64,000 nucleotides of DNA, taken from IMG/VR virus record IMGVR_UViG_2531839664_000027; one strand, written 5' to 3'. Position numbers: made by a program. Below, piece by piece: positions 21,001 to 24,000 of this stretch. This stretch comes from a virus. Lineage: Duplodnaviria > Heunggongvirae > Uroviricota > Caudoviricetes. Numbering within the stretch: the first letter of the stretch is position 1; every line of letters begins with the position of its first letter.

Positions 21001-24000
21001 TGAGCATGAGCGAGCAAATATTCAGAGAGATTAAGCCACGGTTTTATCGCAAGGTAAGGGTGGTTTATCAGGACGAAAACAAGACATGTGCATACGCCAT
21101 TCATAATGGTCGGTGGTCAGTGTTCGACACCAAAAACTTCGAGAAGAACTTCGAGAGGATTAAGGGTGATGAGGAAACTAACATTTGAACTAAGAAGCCC
21201 CATCCATCAGCAGAACGCCATTCAAGCTATCCAGCAAATTCTTCCAGACCCAACCAAACCAATCGTAGTAACCATTCAGGAACGCAACCGCAGCATTCGG
21301 CAAAATGCACGCCTTCACGCGATGCTATCTGAAATAAGTAAGAAGGCTACATATCACGGAAAAGCAAGAAATATTGAGTTTTGGAAGGGGTTATTCGTTT
21401 CTGGTTGGCAGATTGCAACCAACCAGCACCCTGAGATTATATCAGGGTTAGAAGGTGAGCTAATAAACATCAGAGAGAGTACGGCGACTCTATCTGTAAA
21501 AAAAATATCCGAAATAATGGACTACATAGAAGCATATTGTGCCATGAACTCAATTCATCTTAGCGAATGGAGGAATTATGATTGAGGTTTGGGTAGATAT
21601 CGAAGGGATTCCATTTTATCAGGTTAGCAATAAAGGAAATTTCAGGTCTATTACGAGGGAAGTTACAGTAACATCAACCAGACAGAGGCCATATAAGAAA
21701 ATAATTAATGGCACTAGTGTAAAACCATTCAAGTGCAAGTCGACAGGATATCTTCAAATAAAGGTATACGGTAAGAAATACAGCGCCCACAGGATAGTTG
21801 CGAAAGCATTCTGTACAGGGTTCTGTGATGGCTTGGTAGTTAATCACAAAAATGGGCGAAGAGATGACAATAGGGCTGATAACCTTGAATGGGTATCACA
21901 TTCTGAAAACTCAAAACACGGATATAAACAAAATGGAAGAATACCTATATCGCTAGGTAAATTTAGTGGTGACCATCCTGCCAGTAAAGCTGTTATTTCT
22001 ACTGACATGAAAACTGGGGAGGAGGTTTATTATGAAGCAGCTATGGATGCTGTCAGAGAAGGATTTGATAGTTCGTCAATTAGTCGTTGCTGTAATGGCG
22101 AAAGCTCATATCACAAAGGAAGATTCTGGCGATTTGCAAATGAAAAAATGAAAGCGCGATGGGGAGATCGGGCTGCATGACTATCAAATCAAATACGCCA
22201 GCACACAACAAGGACTGCTGGCAAACGCCGCTTTGGCTTTTTGATGCACTGGATATTGAGTTTGGATTCTGGCTGGATTCGGCAGCGAGCGACAAAAATG
22301 CTCTGTGTGCTCACTGGCTAACTGAGGCCGACGACGCGCTCAATTCTGAGTGGGTAAGCCACGGTGCAATCTGGAATAACCCACCGTACAGCAATATCAG
22401 GCCGTGGGTGGAAAAAGCCGCTGAGCAGTGCATACAACAGCGACAGACGGTAGTTATGCTTGTGCCAGAGGATATGTCAGTCGGATGGTTCAGCAAGGCT
22501 CTGGAGAGTGTTGACGAAGTTCGCATTATCACTGATGGACGGATTAATTTTATCGAACCATCGACGGGGCTGGAGAAGAAGGGAAACAGTAAAGGCTCCA
22601 TGCTGCTGATTTGGCGACCGTTCATCAGTCCTCGACGGATGTTTACTACCGTATCCAAAGCGGCATTGATGGCGATCGGGCAGGGCGTCAGGAGGGCGGC
22701 ATGAGGCGACAGCGACGAAGTATCACCGACATCATCTGCGAAAACTGCAAATACCTTCCAACGAAACGCTCCAGAAATAAACGCAAGCCAATCCCAAAAG
22801 AATCTGACGTAAAAACCTTCAATTACACGGCTCACCTGTGGGATATCCGGTGGCTAAGACATCGTGCGAGGAATACAAGGGGATTGACGCGATGATTTAT
22901 CCGGGGCTATATTCCTCACACGCCAGCAAAATCTGGCGTCGGGATTGGCGTCCCGGATGAAAAAGGCGACAACAGACGTGCCAGCGTCTTTTTTATTGTC
23001 GTTTGCACAGTCACATCTCAATGGTGGGCTGTGTGGGGGCGGAGCAATCCGCGCCGGTTCCTTTTTCCCGGTTACGCCAACCCTGCACAGTTCACCACCA
23101 AGCGATTGGCGTCGCAGGTGGTGATGATTCACAAAGAAAAAGGATCATCTTATGGCCACCAAAATCGCAGTTGAAACTCTCTCCCCGATCACCCATAACC
23201 AGATTCCTGTTATTACCACCGAACTTTTGGCGCAGCTTTACGGCACTGAGCCGGTGCGTATTCGCCAGAATCATCATGAGAACAAAGTACGCTTCGTTGA
23301 AGGGAAACACTTTTTCAAAGTTGTTGGTAATGACCTTAAAGAATTGCGGGTAGCTTTAAACTACTCACAAAATTTGCGGGTTACTTTAAGTAACTCACAA
23401 AATTTGCAACCATCTTTAAGAGGGTTACAAATTTCCCCGAAAGCCCGCTCCCTCATACTCTGGACAGAACGAGGCGCAGCCCGTCACGCAAAAATGCTCG
23501 AAACCGATCGGGCTTGACGTTATAGGTCGTTACTTGTAGATTTATCTTTGTGAGGCGTCAGAACCTCTCTAAAGCGGACAAAACCAACCCCGTCAGTGTT
23601 GGATTTTTTATGCCTGTTATTCAGTGATAGCACAATGTGCTGTCACATCCCCGAACAATGTCGGGAGGGCGACGAATACAACACCCGTAAGGGGAATAAG
23701 TCCGCGGTTCTTTAGGCCGTTCTGAACCTCCCGACACCACTATCAGAGGTGGTAATTTCAGAAAAAGCTAAAGGAGGTCGTTATGACCATGCAACTCGCT
23801 GTAGAATCCCTCGTCGTCGTTACTTACTCTAACGTCCCTGTAATAACAACAGGGTTATTGGCAAATCTATACAAAACTGAAGAAAAACATATACGGCAGA
23901 ACTTCAAACGTAATGAATGTCGTTTCATTGCAGGAAAACACTTCTTTAAAGTAAGTGGCTGTGAACTTGATAGTTTGCGAACCTCTCAAAGAGGTTTACA

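What the first reader, a model, noticed from the sequence alone, without database searches (positions are those of the whole stretch)
21169..22180. HNH homing-endonuclease gene inserted at the 3' end of ninB
ninB is intact through about 135 codons but ends in a divergent ...HLSEWRNYD. The next ORF is a NUMOD4/HNH endonuclease whose last nine residues (KARWGDRAA) are, as I recall it, the native C-terminus of lambda NinB. That is the footprint of a free-standing homing endonuclease gene landing a few codons before the ninB stop and capturing its 3' end. It marks an active selfish-endonuclease site in the nin region and may alter NinB function.
Basis: partly seen in the sequence, partly recalled or inferred. 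Interest (0 to 1): 0.5.

Follow-up and report, generated by a model that had tools for sequence, protein, structure and literature searches.

The report
Homing-endonuclease cassette inside phage ninB
In this Shiga-toxin phage, the recombination gene ninB is a patchwork: most of it was overwritten by a foreign ninB copy linked to a selfish-type HNH endonuclease gene, whose reading frame ends in the last nine codons of the original ninB.

Summary
The ninB ORF (21169-21585) is followed by a NUMOD4/HNH ORF (21578-22180). Its last nine codons plus stop are the 3' end of lambda-type ninB: KARWGDRAA*, 30/31 nt identical to phage HK544.

The interpretation needs refinement. This is not a simple insertion into an intact lambda ninB. 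The unit has three parts:
- 126 nt of lambda-type ninB 5' end;
- an 855-nt cassette, made of codons 43-138 of a different NinB subfamily plus the I-HmuI-like HNH gene;
- the 31-nt resident ninB tail.

The cassette is 98.8-100% identical in at least four otherwise unrelated flanking contexts. It occurs in 77 of 5,426 complete E. coli genomes.

In more distant relatives, a NUMOD4-HNH gene or an unrelated HNH-AP2 gene sits at the same spot in nine of the eleven NinB-subfamily members checked. Several of these ORFs also end in a ninB tail. Other E. coli prophages show the mirror image: an HNH-AP2 ORF that begins with ninB codons 1-32.

Best explanation: a free-standing homing endonuclease that spreads by gene conversion, carrying a substitute ninB segment with it. 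Nuclease activity and homing are inferred, not shown. I rate it a new member of a known kind, of moderate interest.

The parts
21169..21585 (+). Chimeric ninB ORF (138 codons). It is translated as a C-terminally shortened NinB/Orf recombination mediator.
   Evidence: Pfam NinB E=2.5e-40, residues 3-130. It aligns to lambda Orf 1PC6 residues 1-126. Lambda has 20 further residues after that point, this protein only 8.
21169..21294 (+). Lambda-type ninB 5' segment (codons 1-42, subtype MRKLTFELRSPIH...). This is the left homology arm.
   Evidence: 85-86% identical to lambda, HK544 and P22. 97.6% identical to the endonuclease-free ninB of E. coli PEC408. Other cassette carriers have other 5' subtypes.
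21255..21294 (+). 40-nt block invariant in all nine ninB alleles compared, with or without the endonuclease. It lies immediately left of the junction and encodes ...KPIVVTIQERNRS.
   Evidence: Computed; alignment.
21295..21567 (+). Body of a different NinB subfamily (codons 43-133). It is always linked to the HNH gene in members at least 64% identical.
   Evidence: No DNA similarity to lambda-type ninB. Only 25.6% amino-acid identity to P22 NinB. Subfamily relatives. Under strong purifying selection: pN 0.075 against pS 0.71 versus SEN22.
21568..21585 (+). Junction between ninB and the endonuclease gene. Shine-Dalgarno GGAGG at 21569-21573, HNH ATG at 21578, ninB TGA at 21583-21585. The two ORFs overlap by 8 nt.
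   Evidence: Sequence. The same Shine-Dalgarno/ATG arrangement is conserved at the DNA level in the Yersinia, Pantoea and Mixta loci and the metagenomic loci, even where the ninB reading frame differs.
21578..22180 (+). NUMOD4-HNH endonuclease ORF (200 codons), I-HmuI-like.
   Evidence: Pfam NUMOD4 and HNH_3. Match to 1U3E I-HmuI, E=3.7e-14, residues 55-186. pN/pS is about 0.16-0.4 across lineages.
22150..22180 (+). Remnant 3' end of the resident lambda-type ninB (KARWGDRAA plus stop), read in the HNH frame. This is the right homology arm, and it keeps the ATGA stop/start overlap with dam.
   Evidence: 30/31 nt identical to HK544, 28/31 to lambda. 0 of 2000 shuffles reach the score. The tail is polymorphic between cassette carriers at 3-19% of positions, against about 1% in the cassette body; Fisher p = 0.009, 0.001 and 7e-6 for three carriers, and 0.28 (not significant) for APC_JM3.2.
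22177..22704 (+). dam (phage N6-adenine methyltransferase), the downstream neighbour. Its start codon overlaps the shared ninB/HNH stop.
   Evidence: Pfam Dam 1e-64. Same start as in PA5 and HK544, MTIKSNTP.

Best explanation
The locus is the footprint of a free-standing, I-HmuI-like HNH homing endonuclease gene that travels as a cassette with a substitute ninB segment.

Shown directly by sequence comparison:
- The ninB-to-stop unit (21169-22180) is a three-part chimera. It consists of a lambda-type ninB 5' end (126 nt), an 855-nt cassette (codons 43-138 of another NinB subfamily plus the HNH gene without its last nine codons), and the last 31 nt of a lambda-type ninB.
- The cassette is nearly identical in unrelated flanking contexts, and the breakpoints lie inside ninB.

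Inferred mechanism:
- The HNH gene sits in the delayed-early nin operon and is translationally coupled to ninB. I infer it is expressed during infection or prophage induction.
- The enzyme nicks or cuts endonuclease-free ninB alleles on a co-infecting phage or a resident prophage.
- The break is repaired from the endonuclease-carrying genome.
- The two ninB types share no DNA homology between codon 43 and the tail. Repair must therefore resolve in the conserved 5' block (21255-21294 and upstream) and in the 31-nt tail or downstream of it.
- As a result, the endonuclease gene and the foreign ninB body are always co-converted. The foreign body keeps a working NinB and removes the target, which gives immunity.
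- The resident tail ends up fused in frame to the endonuclease ORF. This preserves the ATGA stop/start coupling to whatever gene follows.

The first insertion into a ninB tail is ancient. The window shows a later transplant of the cassette into a lambda-type ninB.
For: 1. Three-part structure and exact breakpoints.

2. Cassette mobility. The cassette body is 845-855/855 identical in Stx phages (dam downstream), E. coli ET776 and phage APC_JM3.2 (ninC downstream, different upstream genes), and E. coli contigs L018-L020 (ninE downstream, a different ninB 5' end). DNA outside ninB is unrelated, about 25% identical.

3. The tail belongs to the recipient. It varies 3-19% between carriers against about 1% for the body, and its variants match tails seen in endonuclease-free alleles. 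Fisher p = 0.009, 0.001 and 7e-6 for ET776, L018 and L019; APC_JM3.2 is not significant at p = 0.28.

4. Presence/absence polymorphism. The cassette is in 77 of 5,426 complete E. coli genomes, whereas 1,875 match the wider ninB/dam query, mostly through endonuclease-free ninB or dam. Endonuclease-free ninB alleles exist with 97.6-98.9% identical arms.

5. The protein type is that of sequence-specific homing endonucleases. It has NUMOD4 and HNH_3 domains plus a weak NUMOD-like hit. Its only solved relative is I-HmuI. Its non-enterobacterial relatives are HNH genes scattered at assorted sites in Staphylococcus, Lactococcus and Bacillus phages.

6. The native HNH end lies before the tail. SEN22 and Enterobacter homologues end ...RFADERMAA*, and I-HmuI ends 4 residues after the aligned ...FRY motif.

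7. Generality. Of eleven members of this NinB subfamily whose context was checked, nine (61-100% identical to the window) have an HNH gene starting at the same spot, and the two at 59-62% do not. In L016 and L017 the endonuclease is an unrelated HNH_3+AP2 protein. Tail similarity to ninB tails by shuffle test: L027 (NUMOD4 type) 0/2000; L017 0/2000; L016 20/2000; L028 84/2000 (weaker, about 0.04); Pantoea 1/2000 and Yersinia 4/2000 against the L017 tail.

8. Mirror-image cassette. In E. coli L013 and L018-L020, an HNH_3+AP2 ORF begins with ninB codons 1-32 in frame and is followed by a substitute ninB 5' end. It occurs in 8 of 5,426 genomes.

9. The endonuclease is under purifying selection: pN 0.13-0.30 with synonymous sites saturated. 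Decayed copies also exist, as expected for a selfish element: frameshifted P0114 and P0116, IS3 and IS1 insertions.
Against: No cleavage, target site or biased inheritance has been measured. Homing is inferred from footprints only.

Within the range I could check, no endonuclease-free copy of this NinB clade exists above about 62% identity. The two genes co-diverge (NinB 85/71/60% and HNH 78/66/54% identity for SEN22/Yersinia/Pantoea). That pattern would equally fit a co-adapted two-gene functional module.

NinB-HNH protein fusions with a real physiological role exist in Gram-positive phages: DUF968 (PMC4118853, PMC2034487) and phiNM1 Gp16 (PMC12817073).

Lambdoid phages swap modules at gene boundaries without any endonuclease. 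Relative to its closest Stx-phage relatives (933W/PA5 type), this phage differs by a whole-ninB replacement with junctions at the gene ends.

A 31-nt right arm is short for homologous recombination.

The tail resemblance is not statistically significant for SEN22, P0130 or P0148.
Confidence: 0.65

Rival explanations
1. This is a functional two-gene module, not a selfish element. This NinB subfamily works together with a dedicated HNH nuclease, for example to nick DNA and start NinB/RecA/Red-mediated recombination, or to attack competitors. The pair moves between lambdoid phages by ordinary modular recombination. The ninB tail on the HNH ORF is just a recombination scar.
For: Linkage is tight and old, and both genes are under purifying selection. 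In the range checked, no endonuclease-free member of the clade exists above about 62% identity. NinB-HNH fusions with a demonstrated function exist in Gram-positive phages (PMC4118853; PMC12817073). All 80 copies in complete E. coli genomes cover the whole cassette at 98.6% identity or more.
Against: The nuclease has the architecture of sequence-specific homing enzymes (NUMOD4, I-HmuI-like). It does not have the small zinc-finger HNH of the fusion proteins. It is a separate ORF in another frame.

An unrelated HNH-AP2 enzyme occupies the same site in L016 and L017, and that family also sits at the ninB 5' end next to a lambda-type NinB. Close HNH homologues follow non-NinB genes in an Enterobacter phage (DUF1367) and in P. 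aeruginosa.

Resident-gene remnants fused to the nuclease at either end of ninB are what insertion or overwriting leaves, not boundary swapping. Most lambdoid ninB genes have no such partner.
Confidence: 0.2
2. This is a fossil. The endonuclease inserted by homing long ago and is now inactive or irrelevant. The cassette's present distribution reflects only hitch-hiking on general lambdoid mosaic recombination.
For: Lambdoid phages recombine at short conserved joints anyway. The ninB stop is a joint to dam, ninC, ninD or ninE even in endonuclease-free phages. Disrupted copies exist: frameshifts, IS3 and IS1 insertions.
Against: The HNH motif is intact, and purifying selection holds across lineages whose synonymous sites are saturated. 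The cassette is 98.8-100% identical in four contexts with breakpoints inside a 441-nt gene, including a 31-nt arm. That pattern is easier to obtain with break-stimulated repair.
Confidence: 0.12
3. The HNH ORF lies in a self-splicing intron, or is otherwise removed. In that case a full NinB (...HLSEW-KARWGDRAA) would be restored at the RNA or protein level.
For: I-HmuI-type enzymes are classically intron-encoded. Joining ...SEW to KARWGDRAA would superficially mimic lambda's ...LEWKARWGDRAA.
Against: No Rfam family is hit in 21100-22400: nothing better than E=4, and no group I or II intron. The ORF starts 8 nt after the putative 5' splice site and runs through the 3' one, leaving no room for a ribozyme core. 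ninB has its own in-frame stop, which overlaps the HNH start. An intein is excluded because the frames differ.
Confidence: 0.02

Closest known systems
I-HmuI / I-HmuII / I-BasI / I-TwoI group (HNH homing endonucleases of Bacillus and Staphylococcus phages; structure 1U3E)
   Same: It has the same HNH_3 catalytic core and a C-terminal NUMOD-like DNA-binding region. It matches 1U3E directly at E=3.7e-14 over residues 55-186. Pfam finds NUMOD4 and HNH_3.
   Different: Those enzymes are encoded inside group I introns and nick one strand (my own knowledge). Here there is no intron. The gene is free-standing, translationally coupled to ninB, and carries 14 extra C-terminal residues, nine of them from ninB. 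Whether it nicks or cuts is unknown.
Intronless homing by free-standing endonucleases of T-even phages (SegF, SegG, SegB, MobE)
   Same: An endonuclease gene sits between or next to conserved genes. It is present or absent among related phages. Spread is by break repair with co-conversion of flanking markers, and the donor allele is immune because its sequence differs. See the review PMC2988022; mobE PMC2790892; SegB PMC2330249.
   Different: Here the host is a temperate lambdoid or Stx prophage. The co-converted flank is a deeply divergent allele (about 26% amino-acid identity) rather than a few polymorphisms. The endonuclease ORF is fused in frame to a remnant of the overwritten gene. None of this has been tested experimentally.
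Hybrid genes made by mobile endonuclease ORFs at gene 3' ends in fungal mitochondria (for example the Allomyces atp6 hybrid with a GIY-YIG ORF; recalled from memory, not checked here)
   Same: A foreign C-terminal gene segment plus an endonuclease ORF replaces the resident gene end. The result is a chimeric functional gene, and a remnant of the original 3' end is left downstream.
   Different: The kingdom and the endonuclease family differ. Here the remnant is read as the C-terminus of the endonuclease, and it provides the stop/start overlap for the next gene.
Endonuclease-split or endonuclease-bracketed genes: Aeh1 nrdA split by mobE (from memory), and 'HEG islands' / nucleases at boundaries of genetic exchange (Barth, Dunham and Seed, PMC10055350)
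   Same: Endonuclease genes sit at mosaic boundaries and bracket conserved genes. In L018-L020, ninB is bracketed by two different endonuclease genes.
   Different: ninB is not left as two working pieces. Each cassette brings a replacement for the part it displaces. The island here is a single 0.4-kb gene.
NinB/Orf-HNH fusion nucleases of Gram-positive phages (DUF968; phiETA Orf20; phiNM1 Gp16)
   Same: A NinB-fold domain is associated with an HNH nuclease (PMC2034487, PMC4118853, PMC12817073).
   Different: Those are single polypeptides with a small zinc-finger HNH (CxxC/CxxH) and act as RecA-dependent nucleases. Here there are two ORFs in different frames, and the HNH is of the NUMOD4/HNH_3 homing type.

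Membership tests
HNH endonuclease, I-HmuI-like (Pfam HNH_3 with NUMOD modules) | HNH (beta-beta-alpha-metal) catalytic motif present and intact | tested here: met
   HNH_3 E=2.4e-11, 43.5 bits against a cut-off of 24.8. ...GLVVNHKNGRRDDNRADNLEWVSHSEN... aligns to the I-HmuI active-site region.
HNH endonuclease, I-HmuI-like (Pfam HNH_3 with NUMOD modules) | Accessory sequence-specific DNA-binding modules (NUMOD4 at the N-terminus, NUMOD-like helix-turn-helix at the C-terminus) | tested here: met
   NUMOD4 scores 51.3 bits against a cut-off of 23.4. The I-HmuI_NUMOD-like hit is below its cut-off (19.2 against 27 bits), but the C-terminal 60 residues align to I-HmuI through ...HKGRFWRF.
Free-standing homing endonuclease gene (intronless homing) | Not embedded in an intron or intein; has its own translation signals | tested here: met
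   No Rfam intron. Shine-Dalgarno GGAGG lies 4 nt before the ATG. The frame differs from ninB.
Free-standing homing endonuclease gene (intronless homing) | Presence/absence polymorphism at a fixed site between otherwise homologous genomes | tested here: met
   77 of 5,426 E. coli genomes carry the cassette. Many endonuclease-free ninB alleles have near-identical arms.
Free-standing homing endonuclease gene (intronless homing) | Same element in different genomic backgrounds, with conversion tracts ending in flanking homology | tested here: met
   The 855-nt body is 98.8-100% identical in at least four contexts. The 5' arm and the 31-nt tail vary with the recipient.
Free-standing homing endonuclease gene (intronless homing) | Site-specific cleavage of the endonuclease-free allele, and immunity of the endonuclease-carrying allele | not testable with these tools
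   Needs purified protein and ninB substrates.
Free-standing homing endonuclease gene (intronless homing) | Super-Mendelian, nuclease-dependent inheritance in crosses | not testable with these tools
   Needs phage crosses or prophage induction experiments.
NinB/Orf recombination mediator (PF05772), for the upstream ORF | Match to the family profile above the curated threshold | tested here: met
   137.8 bits against a cut-off of 23.8. Match to 1PC6 at E=1.4e-31.
NinB/Orf recombination mediator (PF05772), for the upstream ORF | Complete C-terminal helix as in lambda Orf (includes W137; reported to contribute to DNA binding, PMC4118853) | tested here: not met
   Alignment to 1PC6 stops at lambda residue 126. 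Only 8 residues follow here, against 20 in lambda, and the last five (WRNYD) are dictated by the endonuclease gene's Shine-Dalgarno and ATG.
Group I intron-encoded endonuclease | Ribozyme core flanking the ORF | tested here: not met
   cmscan at E up to 10 found no intron model in 21100-22400. There is no non-coding space.
NinB-HNH fusion nucleases (DUF968 / Gp16 type) | Single polypeptide with a NinB-fold N-domain and a zinc-finger HNH C-domain | tested here: not met
   There are two ORFs overlapping by 8 nt in different frames. The HNH is of the HNH_3/NUMOD4 type.

The most novel reading that the evidence does not exclude
ninB of lambdoid prophages may be a dedicated landing pad for 'gene-end-capturing' endonuclease cassettes across Gammaproteobacteria. 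At least two unrelated HNH families insert at its 3' end, and one also at its 5' end. Each brings a substitute ninB segment. Each borrows the resident gene's stop (with its coupling to the next gene) or its start and first 32 codons. One ninB can be bracketed by both.

The boldest version concerns the choice of target. The cassette would pair a nuclease with its own allele of a recombination mediator that loads RecA or Red-beta at the break. That would make a self-contained homing module, with nuclease and repair helper together, able to drive allele replacement between co-resident Stx and other prophages.
Probability: 0.15. Interest if true: 0.7.

Novelty: new member of a known kind. Interest (0 to 1): 0.45.

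Why it matters
This would be a clear case, in medically relevant Stx-converting prophages, of a selfish endonuclease reshaping a phage recombination gene. It would explain one mosaic joint in the nin region mechanistically rather than as 'modular exchange'.

It predicts that induction of such a phage can convert ninB alleles of co-resident prophages.

It gives a simple experimental system (lambda ninB as target) for studying intronless homing in temperate phages.

It also cautions annotators in two ways. The 'HNH endonuclease' ORF carries nine residues that are not its own. The adjacent 'NinB' lacks the C-terminal helix of lambda Orf, so its activity may differ.

Tried and rejected
- A scan of one genome per species (genome contigs) with the HNH protein confirmed no locus. 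Contexts were obtained instead from exact-protein look-ups.
- Intron hypothesis: the Rfam scan was negative.
- Chance resemblance of the tail: rejected for the window, L027, L017 and L016, and for Pantoea and Yersinia when compared with the L017 tail. L028 is weaker at 84/2000. It could not be rejected for SEN22, P0130 or P0148, so I do not claim tail capture there.
- dS could not be estimated for most pairs because synonymous sites are saturated (pS above 0.75). I report only pN and pS proportions.
- I looked for an endonuclease-free copy of the window's ninB body. There is none at 80% identity or more in 50,697 phage records, and none above about 62% among the database hits whose context I could check. 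This absence cuts both ways and is listed as evidence against.
- Literature searches found no description of this arrangement. Only generic mentions turned up: NinB+HNH fusions, and an 'HNH' abbreviation in the legend of a ninR-region figure in PMC4118853.
- I did not run structure prediction; it would not discriminate between the hypotheses.
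Full report
**What the window is.** The region is 100% identical to many Stx2a-converting phages, including TL-2011a and the LC6160xx series, and 99.8% identical to Stx2 phage 86. It is the nin region of a lambdoid Stx phage. Gene order around the finding is:
- DUF7301 gene (20780-20995);
- a 62-codon ORF (21000-21188);
- ninB (21169-21585);
- NUMOD4/HNH gene (21578-22180);
- dam (true start 22177, to 22704);
- ninE.

**Checking the observation.** ninB encodes 138 residues ending ...HLSEWRNYD*. The next ORF encodes 200 residues ending ...RFANEKMKARWGDRAA*.

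Pfam finds NinB (E=2.5e-40) for the first ORF. For the second it finds NUMOD4 (1.4e-13), HNH_3 (2.4e-11) and a sub-threshold I-HmuI NUMOD-like hit. The only solved relative of the second ORF is the homing endonuclease I-HmuI (1U3E, E=3.7e-14, residues 55-186). I-HmuI ends four residues after the aligned ...FRY motif, whereas the window protein continues for 14 residues.

Lambda NinB does end ...LALEWKARWGDRAA*. At the DNA level, 22150-22180 is 30/31 identical to the ninB 3' end of HK544 and 28/31 to lambda. The HK544 match continues into dam. No shuffle out of 2000 reached the tail's score.

**Anatomy.** Pairwise BLAST and column-by-column comparison give three segments.

1. 21169-21294 (ninB codons 1-42) is lambda-type. 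It is 85-86% identical to lambda, P22 and HK544, and 97.6% identical to endonuclease-free ninB alleles of E. coli PEC408 and related strains. The last 40 nt (21255-21294) are invariant in all nine alleles compared.
2. 21295-22149 (855 nt) has no DNA similarity to lambda-type ninB. It encodes codons 43-138 of another NinB subfamily (25.6% amino-acid identity to P22 NinB) and the HNH gene up to residue 191.
3. 22150-22180 is the lambda-type ninB tail.

The junction between ninB and the HNH gene is TGGAGGAATTATGATTGA. It contains the Shine-Dalgarno GGAGG, the HNH ATG, and the ninB TGA eight nucleotides into the HNH ORF. The residues WRNYD of 'NinB' are therefore dictated by the endonuclease gene's translation signals. 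The Shine-Dalgarno/ATG arrangement is conserved at the nucleotide level in distant loci, even where the ninB frame over it differs.

Compared with lambda Orf (1PC6), this NinB aligns through lambda residue 126 and then has 8 residues instead of 20. It lacks W137 and most of the C-terminal helix that was reported to help DNA binding.

**The cassette occurs in several backgrounds.** The 855-nt body is 845-855/855 identical in four settings:
- the Stx phages, with dam downstream;
- E. coli ET776 and phage APC_JM3.2, with ninC downstream, two different upstream regions and two different 5' ninB subtypes;
- E. coli contigs L018-L020, with ninE downstream and an unrelated ninB 5' end.

DNA outside the ninB unit is unrelated, about 25% identical.

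The 31-nt tail differs between carriers at 1-6 positions, against 8-10 differences in the 855-nt body. Its variants are those seen in endonuclease-free alleles; for example, the ET776 tail plus ninC equals lambda's. Fisher tests of tail against body give p = 0.009 for ET776, 0.001 for L018 and 7e-6 for L019. APC_JM3.2 is not significant at p = 0.28.

The cassette is in 77 of 5,426 complete E. coli genomes, always full length at 98.6% identity or more. Sixty-two of these are in the Stx/dam context, two have ninC next, and at least two have ninE directly next. By comparison, 1,875 genomes match the wider ninB/dam query, mostly through endonuclease-free ninB or dam.

A 76%-identical version sits in Salmonella phage SEN22 with ninD downstream. 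Its 5' arm is P22-like, and its HNH ends ...RFADERMAA*. The homologue in Enterobacter phage vB_Ecl_MII_001 ends the same way and follows a DUF1367 gene. The seven codons KARWGDR are therefore not native to the endonuclease.

**The deeper history.** The foreign ninB body belongs to a broad NinB subfamily. I checked the gene context of eleven members, counting the window's own clade and SEN22:
- Nine of them, 61-100% identical to the window, have an HNH gene starting at the same overlapping position. These are E. coli, Salmonella, Yersinia kristensenii, two metagenomic contigs, Pantoea, and Mixta (where the gene is cut by IS1).
- Two members at 59-62% identity have no endonuclease gene. They have longer tails...EVSERWAA* and ...DEYADWAQR*.

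In the two metagenomic contigs (L016, L017) the occupant is a different enzyme, an HNH_3+AP2 protein. Its C-terminus (...QAIDWARRFGETKRAA*...QAIEWASRFGDKQRAAA*) resembles the lambda NinB tail. The shuffle test gives 20/2000 and 0/2000.

A NUMOD4-HNH relative (L027) ends ...SDASRLEIEWATRWGKS*, a 17-residue match to lambda's ...SDEARLALEWKARWG (0/2000). L028 ends ...EHGVRWSEYRRADA* (84/2000, weaker). The Pantoea and Yersinia ends match the L017 tail (1/2000 and 4/2000).

Ending the endonuclease ORF in ninB tail codons is thus a recurrent property of this site. It corresponds roughly to lambda NinB codons 127-130. SEN22, P0130 and P0148 do not pass the test, and I make no claim for them.

HNH and NinB co-diverge. 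Both are under purifying selection, with synonymous sites saturated: HNH pN is 0.13-0.30, and NinB pN is 0.075 in the window-SEN22 comparison.

**A mirror image at the other end of ninB.** In E. coli APEC20/16 (L013) and contigs L018-L020, an HNH_3+AP2 ORF begins MRKLTFELRSPIHQQNAIQAIQQILPDPTKPI (MKKLTFEIRSPAH... in L013). These are ninB codons 1-32, in frame. The ORF then continues as the endonuclease.

One nucleotide after its stop, a substitute ninB 5' end begins (MKCVKYHLTNESIRYNAIQYLRTCDLDIIVEFKQRNRS). It joins the rest of ninB at the same ...RNRS block.

This enzyme is 39% identical to the L016 enzyme over the core only. Residues 2-150 of L016 align to residues 35-183 of the L019 protein, so the captured ends lie outside the homologous part.

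The arrangement occurs in 8 of 5,426 genomes. In L018-L020 the same ninB carries both cassettes.

**Mechanism.** These steps are inferred, not shown.
1. The gene lies in the delayed-early nin operon and is translationally coupled to ninB. It should be made on infection or induction.
2. An I-HmuI-type enzyme would nick or cut endonuclease-free ninB.
3. Repair from the endonuclease-carrying genome must find homology. Between the two ninB types, homology exists only in the 5' block and in the tail and downstream.
4. The endonuclease gene and the foreign ninB body are therefore always co-converted. The recipient's arms remain, and its tail becomes the C-terminus of the endonuclease ORF. This keeps the ATGA stop/start overlap with the next gene.
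5. The foreign body supplies a working (if shortened) NinB and destroys the target.

This is intronless homing as described for T-even Seg and Mob enzymes (PMC2988022, PMC2790892, PMC2330249). It also resembles endonuclease-made hybrid genes in fungal mitochondria (from memory) and 'nucleases at boundaries of exchange' (PMC10055350).

**Rivals.**
- Functional partnership. The tight, old linkage and the absence of close endonuclease-free alleles would also fit a functional NinB-nuclease pair. NinB-HNH fusions with real functions exist in Gram-positive phages (PMC2034487, PMC4118853, PMC12817073). Against this: the enzyme is of the homing type; it is replaced by an unrelated HNH-AP2 at the same site; close homologues follow non-NinB genes in an Enterobacter phage and in P. 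aeruginosa; and remnants of the resident gene are left at both ends.
- Fossil element spreading only by ordinary mosaic recombination. This is possible. Disrupted copies exist: frameshifted P0114 and P0116, an IS3-family insertion in LC616041/42, and IS1 in Mixta.
- Intron. Excluded and by the lack of non-coding space.

**Comparison, novelty and score.** The endonuclease is a member of the I-HmuI-like HNH group by sequence. Membership of the 'homing endonuclease' class is met for every feature testable in silico, and untested for cleavage and biased inheritance.

GenBank already labels the SEN22 gene 'HNH homing endonuclease'. A figure legend in PMC4118853 lists an 'HNH' abbreviation for genes in ninR regions. 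I found no description of the chimeric ninB, the captured tail, the shared site for two endonuclease families, or the mirror-image 5' cassette.

I rate it a new member of a known kind, with some unusual architectural features, and of moderate interest (0.45).

Noticed in passing
window 17697-20090 (+): The replicative DnaB-type helicase is 797 aa because it carries an intein. Pfam finds DnaB and DnaB_C split around weak Hint, LAGLIDADG_3 and Hom_end hits. This is a second selfish-endonuclease element about 1.1 kb upstream of ninB in the same phage.
   Followed up: partly
L013 (E. coli APEC20/16, NZ_CP127297) 2004-3021; L018-L020 1912-2905: An HNH_3+AP2 endonuclease ORF starts with ninB codons 1-32 in frame and is followed by a substitute ninB 5' end. 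This is the mirror image of the window's arrangement. In L018-L020 one ninB is bracketed by both endonuclease genes. The arrangement is in 8 of 5,426 complete E. coli genomes.
   Followed up: yes
L016 2910-3458 and L017 2910-3461 (metagenomic lambdoid contigs): An HNH_3+AP2 endonuclease, unrelated in architecture to the window's enzyme, occupies exactly the same site after ninB and ends in a ninB-like tail.
   Followed up: yes
L029 (LC616041.1) 822-2079; equivalent to window 21943-21951: Two Stx2a phages (LC616041, LC616042) have a 1258-bp IS3-family element (HTH_Tnp_1 plus rve) inserted in the HNH gene. The two flanking matches overlap by 9 nt. The HNH gene is therefore dispensable, at least for prophage maintenance.
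   Followed up: yes
P0114, P0116 (E. coli proteins): These HNH variants are 97-98% identical to the window's protein up to about residue 146. After that they read the +1 frame (…MKQLWMLSEKDLIV…, the window's 22032-22151 ORF). They are frameshifted, decaying copies of the endonuclease gene.
   Followed up: partly
L013 4087 onward: The same APEC20/16 prophage has a further NUMOD4 motif-containing HNH endonuclease gene after ninF (RefSeq annotation). The nin region can hold three endonuclease genes.
   Followed up: no
L009 (Enterobacter phage vB_Ecl_MII_001) 1749-2333: The C-terminal half of this HNH homologue is about 77% nt identical to the window and ends ...RFADERMAA* like SEN22. Its N-terminal half is more divergent, and the upstream gene is DUF1367, not ninB. 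This suggests domain-level recombination between endonuclease genes.
   Followed up: partly
window 22159-22161: The mechanical ORF list starts dam at an ATG inside the ninB tail (22159). Endonuclease-free phages annotate the start at the ATG overlapping the ninB stop (22177, MTIKSNTP).
   Followed up: yes
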